This document shows, piece by piece, positions 32,808-47,480 of a DNA stretch of 64,000 nt. Each line of letters opens with the position of its first letter. Positions within the stretch are counted from its first letter, which is position 1. The stretch is from a virus (Duplodnaviria > Caudoviricetes), in the IMG/VR virus record IMGVR_UViG_3300031555_003108, positions 1-64,000 of that record; one strand, written 5' to 3'. Made by a program: the position numbers and the translations under genes. Below the pieces are notes generated by a model. The model saw only the letters and a list, made by a program, of their open reading frames with translations, was not told where the DNA came from and ran no database searches.

Positions 32808-33674
32808 TTAAGTAAGACCAGCTTCGAAGGAAGCAAAATAGCTGGCCGGCACGTGGCTTCTTATCTTATCAATGCTCTGCTTCTTGCCAAACTGGAAACC
32901 ATAGTTGTCGACAAGATCCCAGATGAAAGAAGTATCAGAAATAGCTTTTCCATTCTGACTAAGATATTTTGTCAGAAAAGCAGGCATATTTGTTGCTTTA
33001 GTGGAAATATTAGCCTTCATACTTAAAGCCCACTGCATTGCGAACCCGTTAATAGTTCTCTTCTTAGAGTCTACAACTGTAGGCTTATAGTCAGTTCCAA
33101 ACTGTCTTTCAAAAGACGACAACAGATAGTCAGGCATTGCAGCAGAAAAGCTCGTAGCATTTTTTGTAAGCCAACCAAGAGAATAATAAAATTCATCTGC
33201 GGTACTTACAGGTCTATCCACCTGAGTAAGAGCTTCAAAATCCCTAAGAGCCTTTGCTTTAGCTTTCTCATATTTCTCTTCGTTCTTCCGATCTTCTTCT
33301 GCTTTCTTCCTTGCTGCCTTAGCTTCTTCACAAGCCTGTCTATCAGCAAGTCGTTGAGCTTGTTCACGTTCGATGAAGTCTGCCTTATATACAGACTGAG
33401 CCTCAAGAAGAGTATTGAGCAGAATTTCAGGCATCTCAAGCAAGTTATGCGTAAGCACAACATCCAAAGCAATGGTCTTGGTACCGGCAGATGTGAAATC
33501 AATAGTAGCATACAAACTACCGCCGGTCAAAGGTGCTTTAACAAAAGTAAGCTGGCCTTCGCCGTAGGTTCTGTGCTTTACTGTGAAAGGATAAGCAAGA
33601 GCAGCGAGATCAGAGTTGATAGCATTTCTAAGATCTTCAGCGGTGGTGTAGTCAATGTTGTTGTAAGTAGTCAT
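32808..33674 (-). CDS. Hypothetical early protein with a Tudor-like motif and a coiled coil
   Basis: Own class A promoter (33745-33778); VKHRTYGEGQL; charged helical middle region. Confidence 0.7.
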   Translation of the reverse strand: MTTYNNIDYTTAEDLRNAINSDLAALAYPFTVKHRTYGEGQLTFVKAPLTGGSLYATIDFTSAGTKTIALDVVLTHNLLEMPEILLNTLLEAQSVYKADFIEREQAQRLADRQACEEAKAARKKAEEDRKNEEKYEKAKAKALRDFEALTQVDRPVSTADEFYYSLGWLTKNATSFSAAMPDYLLSSFERQFGTDYKPTVVDSKKRTINGFAMQWALSMKANISTKATNMPAFLTKYLSQNGKAISDTSFIWDLVDNYGFQFGKKQSIDKIRSHVPASYFASFEAGLT

Positions 33675-46138: not shown

Positions 46139-46765
46139 TATAATATTATACGATATTAAAGGTTTATTTTTTGATAAAACGAGAAATAAATCCCAAGTCC
46201 GTCTACATATAAATAATACTTCTCAGAGTTATTAGTTTCGGATACTATAAAGTTTTTATACTTAAACTTATCGAAGTAGATGGCTCCCACAGGTTTCTTA
46301 TTTATATCAAGCAACTCGATTACCGGAGGCTTCTCTTGATCCGCATAAGCATGAAATAAAGTAGTTAGCGAATGTTCCATATATCTCTCTCCTCTCCGAA
46401 AAGAAAAGCTTTTAGGAAATTGCCGGCGAATAGCCAGTTTTCGTAATCTATTAAAATATCCTTAATGATCTTCTGCTCTTCTCTATAAAAATAAATTGCC
46501 TGCTGAAGTTGCTTATAAGCTAATATCAGATTAACATCAGCCTGATGATGTTTAATAGCCTTACAGTACTTTTTAAATAAGGTATTTGCAGAACCTTCTA
46601 AAATGTCTATAACTTTCATAACTGCACGTAAAGTAGCTCTTCCACCGGCATACTCGCTAAAGAAGCGTAATTGTTCAAATTTCGTATGTTCACCGGCTTT
46701 AGCATTTTCTATTAAATTTAAAAATAGTTCTTTTGTGTCGTCCATGTTAATAAACCTTTGTAATT

Positions 46766-46847
46766 AAAATAATAGAGCCTCGGCAGGAGGAAATCCGAGG
46801 CTCTTACGAAAGGAGGAAACTTGTCTATAAGATTTAGTATCTTATAG
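46766..46847 (-). ncRNA. Candidate small RNA with two anti-Shine-Dalgarno motifs
   Basis: Class C promoter at about 46851-46859; two hairpins; TTTCCTCCT occurs twice. Confidence 0.5.
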
Positions 46848-46901
46848 TATATTATACGATATGTAATTTGAAATTTTTCAAATTGTCTGAAATTTTTCAA
46901 A

Positions 46902-47393
46902 TTAATAACCAAAGAAAAGATCGAAAATATCTATTGCTTTCTTTGTAGGTACATTATCGGAAGTCTGCTTGCTAAGTGTTGTCTCGAAGTCTCCATCTTT
47001 TAAAGTGATGTGATAAGAATCATACTTATCAGTAAACTCCTTAAGTGCTACCTGATAGACTTCTTCAGCCTCAGCAAGCTTGTTATGGATATCCTTCTTG
47101 CCGAGCTCAAAAGCATTCTTAAGGTTATCAAGAGCTTCAGCATACTCCTTGGTAAGCTGAGTAAGCTCTTCCTTATAAGTCTTACGTGCAGCATTGAGTG
47201 CCTTAAATGCATCTTCTACCTTAAGAGCATCAGCTTTCTTCTGAGCAGCAGCGTCTTCCTTAGTTTTCTGTTTAGCATAGTAAGCTTCCTCAGCTTCCTG
47301 AAGTTCCTCGATAGTATCAAAGGGTTCCTTCAAAAGCTTTGAGTAGTAACCATACTCTACATCTGTTTTTCTGGTGTCATTCTTCTTTGTCAT
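46902..47393 (-). CDS. Coiled-coil hypothetical protein
   Basis: A/E/K-rich helical sequence with strongly biased codons. Confidence 0.7.
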   Translation of the reverse strand: MTKKNDTRKTDVEYGYYSKLLKEPFDTIEELQEAEEAYYAKQKTKEDAAAQKKADALKVEDAFKALNAARKTYKEELTQLTKEYAEALDNLKNAFELGKKDIHNKLAEAEEVYQVALKEFTDKYDSYHITLKDGDFETTLSKQTSDNVPTKKAIDIFDLFFGY

Positions 47394-47480
47394 TTTTAAA
47401 TACCAATCCTTTTTGTTATTTTTATATTAAGCCGGACAGAAGTCCTCTCAACTGCCTGACTTTATATTATACGATAAAAA

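What the first reader, a model, noticed from the sequence alone, without database searches (positions are those of the whole stretch)
46766..46859. Small RNA displaying two anti-Shine-Dalgarno sequences
Seen on the minus strand after a class C promoter: a hairpin CTATAAGAT/ATCTTATAG, a single-stranded ACAAG-TTTCCTCCT-TTCGTA, then a perfect 10-bp stem AGAGCCTCGG/CCGAGGCTCT whose loop is A-TTTCCTCCT-G. Known: the Firmicute 16S rRNA 3' end contains CCUCCUUUC, and C-rich loops in Gram-positive sRNAs pair with RBSs. Inference: a phage sRNA that broadly blocks AGGAGG-type RBSs for host shut-off or temporal control. If read on the plus strand instead, it would be a GGA-loop (CsrA-sponge-like) RNA.
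Basis: partly seen in the sequence, partly recalled or inferred. Interest (0 to 1): 0.7.

Follow-up and report, generated by a model that had tools for sequence, protein, structure and literature searches.

The report
Conserved phage small RNA, anti-ribosome-site motifs
An uncultured large phage of a probably Gram-positive (Firmicute) host, and six relatives, carry a conserved RNA unit of about 80 bases that exposes two copies of the sequence ribosomes use to dock on messenger RNAs, so it most likely blocks ribosome-binding sites, but no transcript or target has been shown.

Summary
On the minus strand, a -10 box is followed by a 9-bp hairpin, a single-stranded UUUCCUCCU, and a perfect 10-bp GC-rich stem with UUUCCUCCU in its loop. 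A U-rich tail follows, and the start codon of a 126-aa gene lies 20 nt beyond the tail.

All six related metagenome loci I could fetch carry the same unit. The 13-mer UUCCUCCUUUCGU is invariant, although only 20% of third codon positions next door are. CCUCC is always in the second loop, and that stem covaries (6 of 11 pairs compensatory). CCTCCT is rare on the coding strand: 4 in 64 kb, two of them here. There is no Rfam family and one copy per genome.

Best reading (0.45): an ~80-nt RNA with its own promoter and a leaky terminator, built like Listeria LhrC, that pairs with Shine-Dalgarno regions. Read-through must also make it the leader of the promoter-less 126/74-aa gene pair. A purely cis role (0.3) is not excluded.

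No specific target stood up to controls, and no RNA data could be reached. Host shut-off or temporal switching is untested. This scan has reported similar anti-SD-loop RNA candidates in other phages. New member of a known kind; moderate interest.

The parts
46869..46900 (-). Two tandem copies of a 13-nt near-palindromic box (TTGAAAAATTTCA; 46900-46888 and 46881-46869), just after the stop codon of the 163-aa gene (46904-46902). It is either a -35-region element or a regulator-binding site.
   Evidence: the only exact copies in the window; in the whole 91-kb record only two one-mismatch variants occur elsewhere. The proximal copy is conserved in all relatives. Its spacing to the -10 is 19 nt, too long for a standard -35 (read).
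46848..46860 (-). -10 region ATCGTATAATATA (TATAAT at 46856-46851). The predicted transcription start is about 46845-46843.
   Evidence: TATAAT (or a one-base variant) is kept in all 7 sequences. The same 13-mer class recurs at 47475 and 46154. The start site is inferred from spacing only.
46825..46847 (-). Hairpin 1: 9-bp A/U-rich stem with a 5-nt loop, at the very 5' end of the predicted RNA.
   Evidence: Seven of 9 pairs never vary and one shows a G-U change. It is therefore conserved in sequence, with no proof from covariation. It could also be a palindromic DNA operator. Other promoters of this class also start their RNAs with a hairpin.
46806..46819 (-). Single-stranded anti-SD motif 1. 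UUUCCUCCU is at 46819-46811; the 13-mer UUCCUCCUUUCGU (46818-46806) is invariant in all 7 sequences.
   Evidence: It is unpaired in most predicted folds. It is identical to the Bacillus-type 16S 3' tail over CCUCCUUUC.
46774..46804 (-). Hairpin 2, a terminator-like stem: 10-bp GC-rich stem (46804-46795 with 46783-46774) and an 11-nt loop holding anti-SD motif 2 (46793-46785).
   Evidence: Six of 11 pairs have compensatory changes and 96% of cells are paired. CCUCC is kept in the loop of all 7. Stem energy is -17 to -25 kcal/mol.
46766..46773 (-). U-rich tail (AUUAUUUU) after hairpin 2. Together they form the predicted intrinsic terminator and the 3' end of the ~80-nt RNA.
   Evidence: A U-rich tail is present in all relatives. 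My relaxed terminator scan, which allows loops up to 12 nt, picks this site. The standard scan misses it because the loop exceeds 8 nt.
46365..46765 (-). Read-through part: weak SD AAAGG (46759-46755), then the 126-aa ORF (46745-46365). This is an all-helical protein of unknown function. It overlaps the start of a 74-aa ORF (46380-46156).
   Evidence: 47 homologues; helical hairpin, pLDDT 78. No family or fold match. There is no room for a promoter between the terminator and the ATG.

Best explanation
This is a dedicated small transcription unit of the phage. It lies on the minus strand between the stop codon of a 163-aa gene and the start of a 126-aa gene.

Proposed working:
- A phage-type promoter fires at about 46845. 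It has a -10 box and an upstream palindromic box.
- The RNA begins with a 5'-terminal hairpin, which probably protects it from 5' exonuclease.
- It then exposes the invariant UUCCUCCUUUCGU as single strand.
- It ends at a GC-rich hairpin plus U-tail that shows a second CCUCC in its loop.
- Most transcripts stop there, giving an RNA of about 80 nt. A fraction reads through and serves as mRNA for the 126-aa and 74-aa genes.
- The two exposed motifs are identical to the mRNA-docking tail of Gram-positive 16S rRNA. They pair with Shine-Dalgarno regions of mRNAs and compete with the 30S subunit. This is the mode of action of LhrC, RsaE/RoxS and the RNAIII loops, most likely in trans on phage or host messages.

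Shown here: the anatomy, conservation, covariation, strand and single-copy status.

Inferred: the transcription start, termination, pairing with SD regions, and action in trans.
For: 1. Anatomy confirmed, and it folds better than all 200 shuffles.
2. All six fetchable relatives (126-aa protein 62-86% identical) carry the unit at the same place.
3. Selection: the 13-mer is invariant, while only 20% of third codon positions and 0 of 9 four-fold sites in the adjacent gene are invariant.
4. CCUCC is kept in the hairpin-2 loop while the stem changes by compensatory pairs: 6 of 11 pairs, 0/500 shuffles reach the covariation score, and slid controls collapse to 27-55% paired.
5. Terminator features are present in all members: stem energy -17 to -25 kcal/mol and a U-rich tail.
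6. Unusual gene order. The other 10 strict terminators of the genome lie 3-198 nt (nine of them 3-25 nt) after a stop codon, and none has a -10 box within 110 nt upstream. Here the promoter lies between the stop codon and the terminator, as expected for a unit made to produce a short RNA. A second conserved unit of the same build lies 700 nt downstream.
7. The coding strand is strongly depleted of CCTCC (8 against 76 GGAGG), so two copies 26 nt apart stand out.
8. Not coding: relatives differ by 2-nt and 8-nt insertions.
9. The layout has an experimentally proven precedent. In LhrC, a CU-rich motif in the single-stranded spacer and in the terminator loop both bind the SD region of lapB mRNA (PMC4132741).
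10. This phage uses strong SDs: 57 of 147 genes have GGAGG.
Against: - There is no transcript evidence.
- No specific target. The best translation-initiation site (288-aa gene at 33674, -21.4 kcal/mol) is matched or beaten by 44% of shuffled-flank controls.
- The 126-aa gene has no promoter of its own, so the element is certainly also a 5' leader. The unit was never seen apart from that gene.
- Hairpin 1 is invariant rather than covarying, so it may be a DNA operator.
- The -35 region is non-standard: TTGAAA sits 19 nt from the -10.
- There are only 7 sequences from one lineage, and six come from one metagenome assembly.
- A stoichiometric sRNA is an unlikely way to block all SD-bearing messages.
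Confidence: 0.45

Rival explanations
1. Purely cis-acting leader or attenuator. The promoter exists to express the 126-aa/74-aa gene pair. Hairpin 2 is a conditional terminator or checkpoint. Read-through would be set by a factor (an antiterminator protein or RNA) that recognises the conserved CCUCC motifs or hairpin 1. This would resemble the lambda PR'-6S RNA-tR' unit with Q, or LoaP- or put-type leaders. The short RNA would be a by-product.
For: - The 126-aa gene starts 28 nt after the stem, with no promoter between.
- The element is always immediately upstream of that gene.
- Another promoter of the same class (47475) directly drives a protein gene through a structured leader.
- A second promoter-then-terminator unit lies upstream of nrdD, so the pattern recurs.
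- Hairpin 1 and the palindromic box are conserved in sequence, like protein-binding sites.
- A -10-like TATAAG lies at about the transcription start (read).
Against: - No alternative (antiterminator) pairing to either arm of hairpin 2 is visible in the single-stranded region (read; folds).
- Pairing of the anti-SD motif with the gene's own weak SD is only -5 to -8.5 kcal/mol. It appears in only 2 of 7 predicted folds.
- No known bacterial or phage antiterminator recognises CCUCC (own knowledge).
- The nrdD unit is followed by its own promoter motif, so there the short RNA cannot be a leader.
- Other hairpin-plus-U sites in this genome also sit 23-24 nt before a gene, so leaky read-through seems routine rather than regulated.
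Confidence: 0.3
2. Protein or enzyme decoy. The RNA mimics the 3' tail of 16S rRNA and titrates a host or phage factor that recognises that tail, rather than pairing with mRNAs. Candidates are an rRNA-tail-binding KH protein, a maturation RNase, or a toxin that cuts the anti-SD.
For: - The invariant block extends beyond the SD-pairing core and equals the Bacillus-type tail over 9 nt.
- Two copies are shown in two different structural contexts.
- No specific mRNA target emerges.
Against: - No candidate binding protein was identified. The neighbouring proteins have no recognisable family or fold.
- The resemblance to the tail is equally explained by selection for SD pairing.
- There is no precedent that I know of.
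Confidence: 0.1
3. 3' UTR element of the upstream 163-aa gene. The motifs would fold back on that mRNA's own ribosome-binding site to repress it, as the icaR 3' UTR does in Staphylococcus aureus. Or the stem would be nothing more than that gene's terminator.
For: - No other terminator follows the 163-aa gene, so its mRNA must run through the element to hairpin 2.
- Precedent for a 3' UTR anti-SD: PMC3868564 (title and abstract).
Against: - Duplex energy with the 163-aa leader and start region is only -10 to -13 kcal/mol in six genomes. That is at or weaker than the genome-wide mean of -12.2 for start regions.
- A conserved promoter inside the 3' UTR is unexplained by this reading.
- A plain terminator would not keep its loop and a 13-nt upstream block invariant.
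Confidence: 0.08
4. The functional strand is the plus strand. The RNA would show AGGAGG/GGA motifs in a loop and in single strand, and would act as a CsrA-type sponge or ribosome decoy.
For: - The plus strand also folds well (z = -3.27).
- GGA in a hairpin loop is the CsrA-site format (own knowledge).
Against: - All genes of the region are on the minus strand.
- The conserved -10 box and the U-tail are on the minus strand.
- G-U pairs at several stem positions would be A-C mismatches on the plus strand.
- No conserved small ORF follows the plus-strand SD-like motifs (read).
Confidence: 0.02

Closest known systems
LhrC1-5 sRNAs of Listeria monocytogenes (PMC4132741)
   Same: - A small RNA of a low-GC Gram-positive system.
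- The same CU-rich SD-complementary motif is repeated in the single-stranded spacer between two hairpins and in the loop of the terminator hairpin.
- Both of these sites were shown to bind the SD region of a target mRNA.
   Different: - No sequence or covariance-model similarity.
- The motif here is CCUCC(U), a full anti-SD, rather than UCCC.
- The first hairpin loop carries no motif.
- Single copy, phage-borne, and fused to a downstream operon as its leader.
Cuckoo / alpha-r14 sRNAs (NfeR1, CcsR1-4; Rfam RF02344; PMC4615179, PMC10746234)
   Same: - The anti-SD-like motif CCUCCUCCC is repeated in exposed positions, on stems that vary freely (abstract of PMC4615179).
- NfeR1 pairs with translation-initiation regions (abstract of PMC10746234).
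- It is the only Rfam model to give even a weak match here.
   Different: - The match is 18.2 bits against a gathering score of 58.8.
- That family belongs to Alphaproteobacteria and has the motif in every hairpin loop.
- Here one copy is single-stranded and one is in a loop.
C-rich-loop sRNAs of Staphylococcus and Bacillus (RsaE/RoxS, RNAIII hairpins, SprD, FsrA)
   Same: C-rich exposed motifs that block translation by pairing with SD sequences (summarised in PMC4132741).
   Different: - Different motif (UCCC or CCCC).
- No Rfam hit.
- These are encoded in bacterial genomes, not in a phage.
Lambda PR'-6S RNA-tR' unit
   Same: - A promoter is followed at once by a terminator, which gives a short RNA.
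- The genes behind it depend on read-through (own knowledge; the 6S RNA is listed among phage sRNAs in PMC12197685).
   Different: - No Q-like protein or binding element was identified.
- The lambda 6S RNA carries no anti-SD motifs.
- The host type is different.
icaR mRNA 3' UTR anti-SD of Staphylococcus aureus (PMC3868564)
   Same: A C-rich anti-SD motif downstream of a coding sequence, within the same transcript as an upstream gene.
   Different: - Pairing with the upstream gene's own start region is weak here.
- The element has its own conserved promoter.

Membership tests
LhrC (Listeria sRNA family in Rfam) | Match to the family covariance model at or above its gathering score | tested here: not met
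   No Rfam family reaches its gathering score anywhere in the window. LhrC is not among the permissive hits up to E = 10 on 46600-47000.
LhrC (Listeria sRNA family in Rfam) | CU-rich SD-complementary motif repeated in loop A, in the single-stranded spacer and in the terminator loop | tested here: inconclusive
   The spacer and the terminator loop carry the motif. The first hairpin loop (ACUAA) does not. The motif is CCUCC, not UCCC. So the working principle is shared, but not the family signature.
Cuckoo / alpha-r14 (RF02344) | Covariance-model score of at least 58.8 bits | tested here: not met
   18.2 bits, E = 0.27 in a 401-nt search.
Cuckoo / alpha-r14 (RF02344) | Two to four adjacent hairpins, each with CCUCCUCCC in its loop (PMC4615179) | tested here: not met
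   Only hairpin 2 has the motif in its loop. The motif is UUUCCUCCU, or CCUCC in relatives.
Rho-independent (intrinsic) terminator | GC-rich stem directly followed by a U-rich tract, conserved as a structure | tested here: met
   - 10-bp stem with 7 G-C pairs, tail AUUAUUUU.
- Stem energy -17 to -25 kcal/mol and a U-rich tail in all 7.
- Compensatory changes in the stem.
- Termination itself is not testable with these tools.
Trans-acting base-pairing sRNA (generic class) | Own promoter and own terminator giving a discrete short transcript | not testable with these tools
   Promoter-like and terminator-like signals are conserved.
Trans-acting base-pairing sRNA (generic class) | An identifiable target whose complementarity exceeds chance or covaries with the seed | tested here: not met
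   - The best start-region site (-21.4 kcal/mol) is reached by 44% of shuffled-flank controls.
- Targets in relatives could not be examined: their contigs are short or not held.
SD-sequestering 5' leader (cis translational control) | Stable, conserved intramolecular pairing between the anti-SD and the SD of the downstream gene | tested here: not met
   Duplex energies are -5.0 to -8.5 kcal/mol. The pairing appears in the predicted fold of only 2 of 7 leaders.
Lambda Q-type promoter-proximal antitermination unit | Promoter, then a short terminated RNA, then dependent genes, plus a Q-like protein and its DNA site | tested here: inconclusive
   The layout fits. No Q-like protein or site was sought or found. 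The proteins next door have no family.

The most novel reading that the evidence does not exclude
The RNA is a deliberate mimic of the free 3' tail of the host's 16S rRNA and acts globally rather than on one target. One version: it soaks up strong GGAGG-type ribosome-binding sites to re-route ribosomes during infection. The other: it decoys a factor (a toxin, RNase or tail-binding protein) that would otherwise act on the ribosome's anti-SD. Similar CCUCC-loop RNAs noted by this scan in unrelated phages would then form a widespread, undescribed class of phage translation-takeover RNAs.
Probability: 0.12. Interest if true: 0.8.

Novelty: new member of a known kind. Interest (0 to 1): 0.48.

Why it matters
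Nearly all characterised phage small RNAs come from temperate phages of Gram-negative bacteria. A 2025 review of phage sRNAs does not contain the word Gram-positive and describes no phage RNA that itself carries an anti-SD seed (PMC12197685).

This element is a conserved, structurally supported RNA in a large uncultured phage, probably of a Firmicute. It carries the exact ribosomal docking sequence twice. That makes it a concrete and easily synthesised candidate for testing whether phages use RNA to interfere with translation initiation.

It also shows a compact design in which one promoter yields both a short regulatory RNA and, by read-through, an mRNA. The finding is limited because the phage and its host are uncultured and no target is known.

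Tried and rejected
1. Known RNA families. Rfam at gathering scores over the whole window gave nothing. A permissive search gave only sub-threshold hits; the best relevant one was ar14 at 18 bits.

2. Closer relatives.
- There is no similar DNA or protein in the cultured-phage collection. The only DNA match was a 48-nt stretch in a Vibrio phage, inside the neighbouring 163-aa coiled-coil gene.
- IMG/VR searches by protein and by alignment found none.
- An exact-element search found none.
- A motif-pair pattern gave 24 hits in IMG/VR and a second pattern gave 2 hits in GTDB genomes. On inspection all were unrelated, mostly the antisense of ordinary ribosome-binding sites.

The records behind L002-L007 are not held for the genome search.

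5. Specific trans target.
- The 288-aa gene at 33674 looked attractive. It has 18 complementary positions with two bulges, plus a GGAGGA loop in its leader.
- The energy is not better than shuffled-flank controls (p = 0.44). I therefore rejected it as a supported target.

6. Cis pairing with the SD of the 126-aa gene: weak and not conserved.

7. Pairing with the 74-aa gene start: -10 to -19 kcal/mol. That purine run encodes the conserved C-terminus of the 126-aa protein, so it is uninformative.

8. icaR-like pairing with the leader of the 163-aa gene: weak.

9. Temporal-switch prediction, that one promoter class would lack complementary SDs.
- Genes behind the TGCTAAAT promoter motif (which an earlier first-reader note guessed to be late) seldom have GGAGG (1 of 11), against 8 of 16 for extended -10 promoters.
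- However, they use AAGGAG, which the 13-mer also pairs with. There is no selectivity.

10. Function of the 126-aa protein. There are no Pfam or PHROG families. The model is a helical hairpin with no significant PDB match. The atlas search was uninformative.

11. Extra copies. The covariance model finds one copy per genome.

12. Hairpin 1 as a repeated operator. There is no second copy in the 91-kb record.

13. Sample origin. Searching the literature for the JAEIGA prefix found nothing. Cluster look-ups gave no names.

Full report
**Setting**

The window is the first 64 kb of a 91-kb IMG/VR virus record, estimated at about 42% complete. It has 38% G+C. Essentially all genes are on the minus strand. 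It encodes phage-type functions: NrdD, an SNF2 helicase and homing endonucleases. The nearest helicases in cultured phages, at 31-35% identity, belong to Bacillus, Streptococcus and Clostridium phages. The genome uses strong Shine-Dalgarno sites: 57 of 147 genes have GGAGG. A Firmicute (Bacillota) host is therefore likely but not shown.

Reading the minus strand, the order of features is:
- The 163-aa gene stops at 46904-46902.
- Two copies of a near-palindromic 13-nt box follow (46900-46888 and 46881-46869).
- Then a -10 box, TATAAT at 46856-46851.
- Hairpin 1 spans 46847-46825.
- The single-stranded motif UUUCCUCCU lies at 46819-46811.
- A perfect 10-bp stem (46804-46795 with 46783-46774) has an 11-nt loop holding the same 9-mer (46793-46785).
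- A U-rich tail covers 46773-46766.
- A weak SD (AAAGG) precedes the ATG of a 126-aa ORF at 46745.

The fold prediction reproduces both hairpins, at z = -4.05 with no shuffle as good.

The 9-mer is over-represented: 4 copies against 0.81 expected. The other two copies are ordinary ribosome-binding sites read from the other strand. On the coding strand CCTCCT occurs only 4 times against 31 AGGAGG, and CCTCC 8 times against 76 GGAGG. The two other CCTCCT copies are inside genes.

**It is conserved and under selection**

- The 126-aa protein has 47 homologue clusters at 58-99% identity in public metagenomes.
- Only six contigs could be fetched, all from one assembly.
- All six carry the element directly upstream of the homologue.
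- The block UUCCUCCUUUCGU is identical in all seven sequences. Among the same seven, only 20% of third codon positions and 0 of 9 four-fold sites in the adjacent gene are invariant.
- The loop of hairpin 2 always contains CCUCC, although the stem differs.
- On a model-guided alignment, 96% of hairpin-2 cells pair and 6 of 11 pairs show compensatory double changes. No shuffle of 500 reaches the covariation score, and sliding the partner by 1-3 columns drops pairing to 27-55%.
- Hairpin 1 is conserved in sequence: 7 of 9 pairs never vary. It is therefore not proven as RNA structure.
- The -10 box, the proximal palindromic box and a U-rich tail are also kept.
- Insertions of 2 and 8 nt in relatives exclude a coding reading of the 64-codon ORF that spans the element.
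- A covariance model finds exactly one copy per genome.
- No member was found in IMG/VR, in GTDB genomes or in cultured phages.

**Strand**

The minus strand is favoured for three reasons. The genes, the -10 box and the U-tail are all there. Several stem positions are G-U on that strand, which would be A-C on the other. No conserved ORF follows the plus-strand SD-like motifs.

**What kind of unit is it?**

A relaxed scan of the whole record found 11 strict hairpin-plus-U terminators. Nine of the other ten lie 3-25 nt after a stop codon, and the tenth lies 198 nt after one. None of the ten has a -10 box within 110 nt upstream.

Only this one lies 97 nt after the stop with a -10 box 54 nt upstream. 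The order here is stop, promoter, short RNA, terminator. That order makes sense if the unit exists to make a short RNA.

The same -10 class (ATCGTATAAT) occurs twice more nearby:
- At 47475 it drives the 163-aa gene through a leader that begins with a hairpin.
- At 46154 it is followed after about 40 nt by a strong terminator (46104-46074). After that, nrdD has its own upstream motif. That second promoter-to-terminator unit is conserved in five relatives.

Two such units 700 nt apart argue that short RNAs are real products of this region.

Against this, the 126-aa gene begins 28 nt after hairpin 2 with no room for a promoter. Transcripts must therefore read through the stem, and the element is also that gene's leader. 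Other hairpin-plus-U sites in the genome sit 23-24 nt before a gene, so leaky termination seems common here.

**How it most likely works**

The invariant block equals the Bacillus-type 16S 3' tail over CCUCCUUUC. That tail is GAUCACCUCCUUUCU in B. subtilis, whereas the E. coli tail ends in CCUCCUUA (PMC5427494). An RNA that shows this sequence in single strand and in a loop is complementary to GGAGG-type ribosome-binding sites.

The closest proven precedent for the layout is LhrC of Listeria. In LhrC the same CU-rich motif sits in the single-stranded spacer and in the terminator loop, and mutational and probing data show that these sites bind the SD region of lapB mRNA (PMC4132741).

My preferred reading is therefore an ~80-nt RNA, stabilised by a 5' hairpin and a 3' terminator, that pairs with SD regions and competes with 30S binding. 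It also serves as an operon leader by read-through. Only the anatomy and its conservation are shown; transcription start, termination and pairing are inferred.

**Tests that failed to sharpen this**

1. Target search.
- Duplex energies against 147 start regions put a 288-aa gene (33674) on top at -21.4 kcal/mol. The complementarity runs beyond the SD, and a GGAGGA hairpin loop lies in the same leader.
- Genome-wide, only three sites reach that level.
- However, keeping UCCUCC and shuffling the flanks gives an equal or better best hit in 44% of trials. No specific target is supported.

2. Cis sequestration. Pairing with the 126-aa gene's SD is weak (-5 to -8.5 kcal/mol). It is predicted in only 2 of 7 leaders.

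3. icaR-like fold-back. Pairing with the 163-aa gene's leader is -10 to -13 kcal/mol, no better than the genome mean of -12.2.

4. Temporal selectivity. Genes behind the TGCTAAAT promoter motif (which an earlier first-reader note guessed to be late) rarely have GGAGG (1 of 11, against 8 of 16 for extended -10 promoters). They use AAGGAG instead, which the 13-mer also matches.

5. Neighbouring proteins.
- The 126-aa protein is a helical hairpin (pLDDT 78) with no family, fold or atlas match.
- The 163-aa and 74-aa neighbours have no family match either.

6. RNA data. None could be reached.

**Comparison with known systems**

- It works like the CU-rich or anti-SD-seed sRNAs: LhrC, RsaE/RoxS, RNAIII loops, and the alphaproteobacterial cuckoo/alpha-r14 RNAs, whose loops carry CCUCCUCCC (PMC4615179; NfeR1 in PMC10746234).
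- It is a member of none of them. Nothing reaches an Rfam gathering score, and the ar14 model gives 18 bits against 58.8.
- The promoter-terminator-genes layout also recalls the lambda PR'/6S/tR' unit. No Q-like component was identified.

**Novelty and weight**

- This is a new RNA family of a known functional kind, found in a phage setting that is poorly explored for Gram-positive hosts (PMC12197685).
- This scan's own notes list at least eight other phage or bacterial candidates with CCUCC-type loops on unrelated DNA. Those are unchecked AI notes. They suggest the theme recurs, which slightly lowers the surprise of this single case and raises the value of a joint experimental test.
- I put the probability that the element is a real, selected minus-strand RNA feature at about 0.9.
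- I put the probability that it acts through SD pairing as a short RNA at 0.45.
- I put the probability that it is only a cis leader or attenuator at 0.3.

Noticed in passing
window 46154-46064 (-); L002:2176-2275, L003:953-1050, L004:3095-3192, L006:3101-3198, L007:2155-2248: A second promoter-to-terminator unit lies between the 74-aa gene and nrdD. A -10 box of the same class (ATCGTATAATATT) is followed by about 40 nt with a conserved GUGUUCAUUGGCAU block. Then comes a terminator stem that varies with G-U and compensatory changes, followed by an invariant UCUCCU at the start of the U-tail. nrdD then has its own TGCTAAATT motif. This is a candidate second small RNA of about 70-80 nt.
   Followed up: partly
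window 47475-47394 (-): The leader of the 163-aa gene starts with a hairpin (about 47462-47429) whose 12-nt loop carries an SD-like GAGAGGAC. In four relatives the stem differs while the loop is kept (L002, L005 and L007 shown). It is a possible partner or counterpart of the CCUCC loop, but the predicted pairing is only 5 bp.
   Followed up: partly
window 33742-33675 (-): The leader of a 288-aa gene of unknown function has three features. A 5' hairpin (33738-33713) has GGAGGACA in its loop. A U-rich run follows. The start region is complementary to the anti-SD RNA over 18 positions with two bulges. It was the top hit of the target scan, but is not significant against shuffled-flank controls.
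   Followed up: yes
window 46869-46900 (-): The near-palindromic box TGAAAAATTTCA occurs twice in tandem, 19 nt apart, upstream of the -10 box. There are no other exact copies in the 91-kb record. It is possibly the binding site of a dimeric regulator specific to this promoter.
   Followed up: partly
whole record (window 1-64000 and beyond): Promoter classes differ in SD type. Genes behind extended -10 promoters (TTTACA-17-TGnTATAATATA) often use GGAGG (8 of 16). Genes behind the TGCTAAAT motif use AAGGAG (GGAGG in 1 of 11). The three ATCG-TATAAT promoters cluster within 1.4 kb (47475, 46860, 46154) and have long structured leaders.
   Followed up: partly
window 25670-25622 and 56106-56055 (-): Two more hairpin-plus-U terminators lie only 23-24 nt before the next start codon, with no promoter between them. 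Read-through of terminators therefore seems a regular way of expressing downstream genes in this phage.
   Followed up: no
L006:2410-2425: One relative has an 8-nt insertion that partly duplicates the anti-SD block (UUCCUCUU before UUCCUCCUUUCGU). This gives a third CU-rich tract in the single-stranded region.
   Followed up: no
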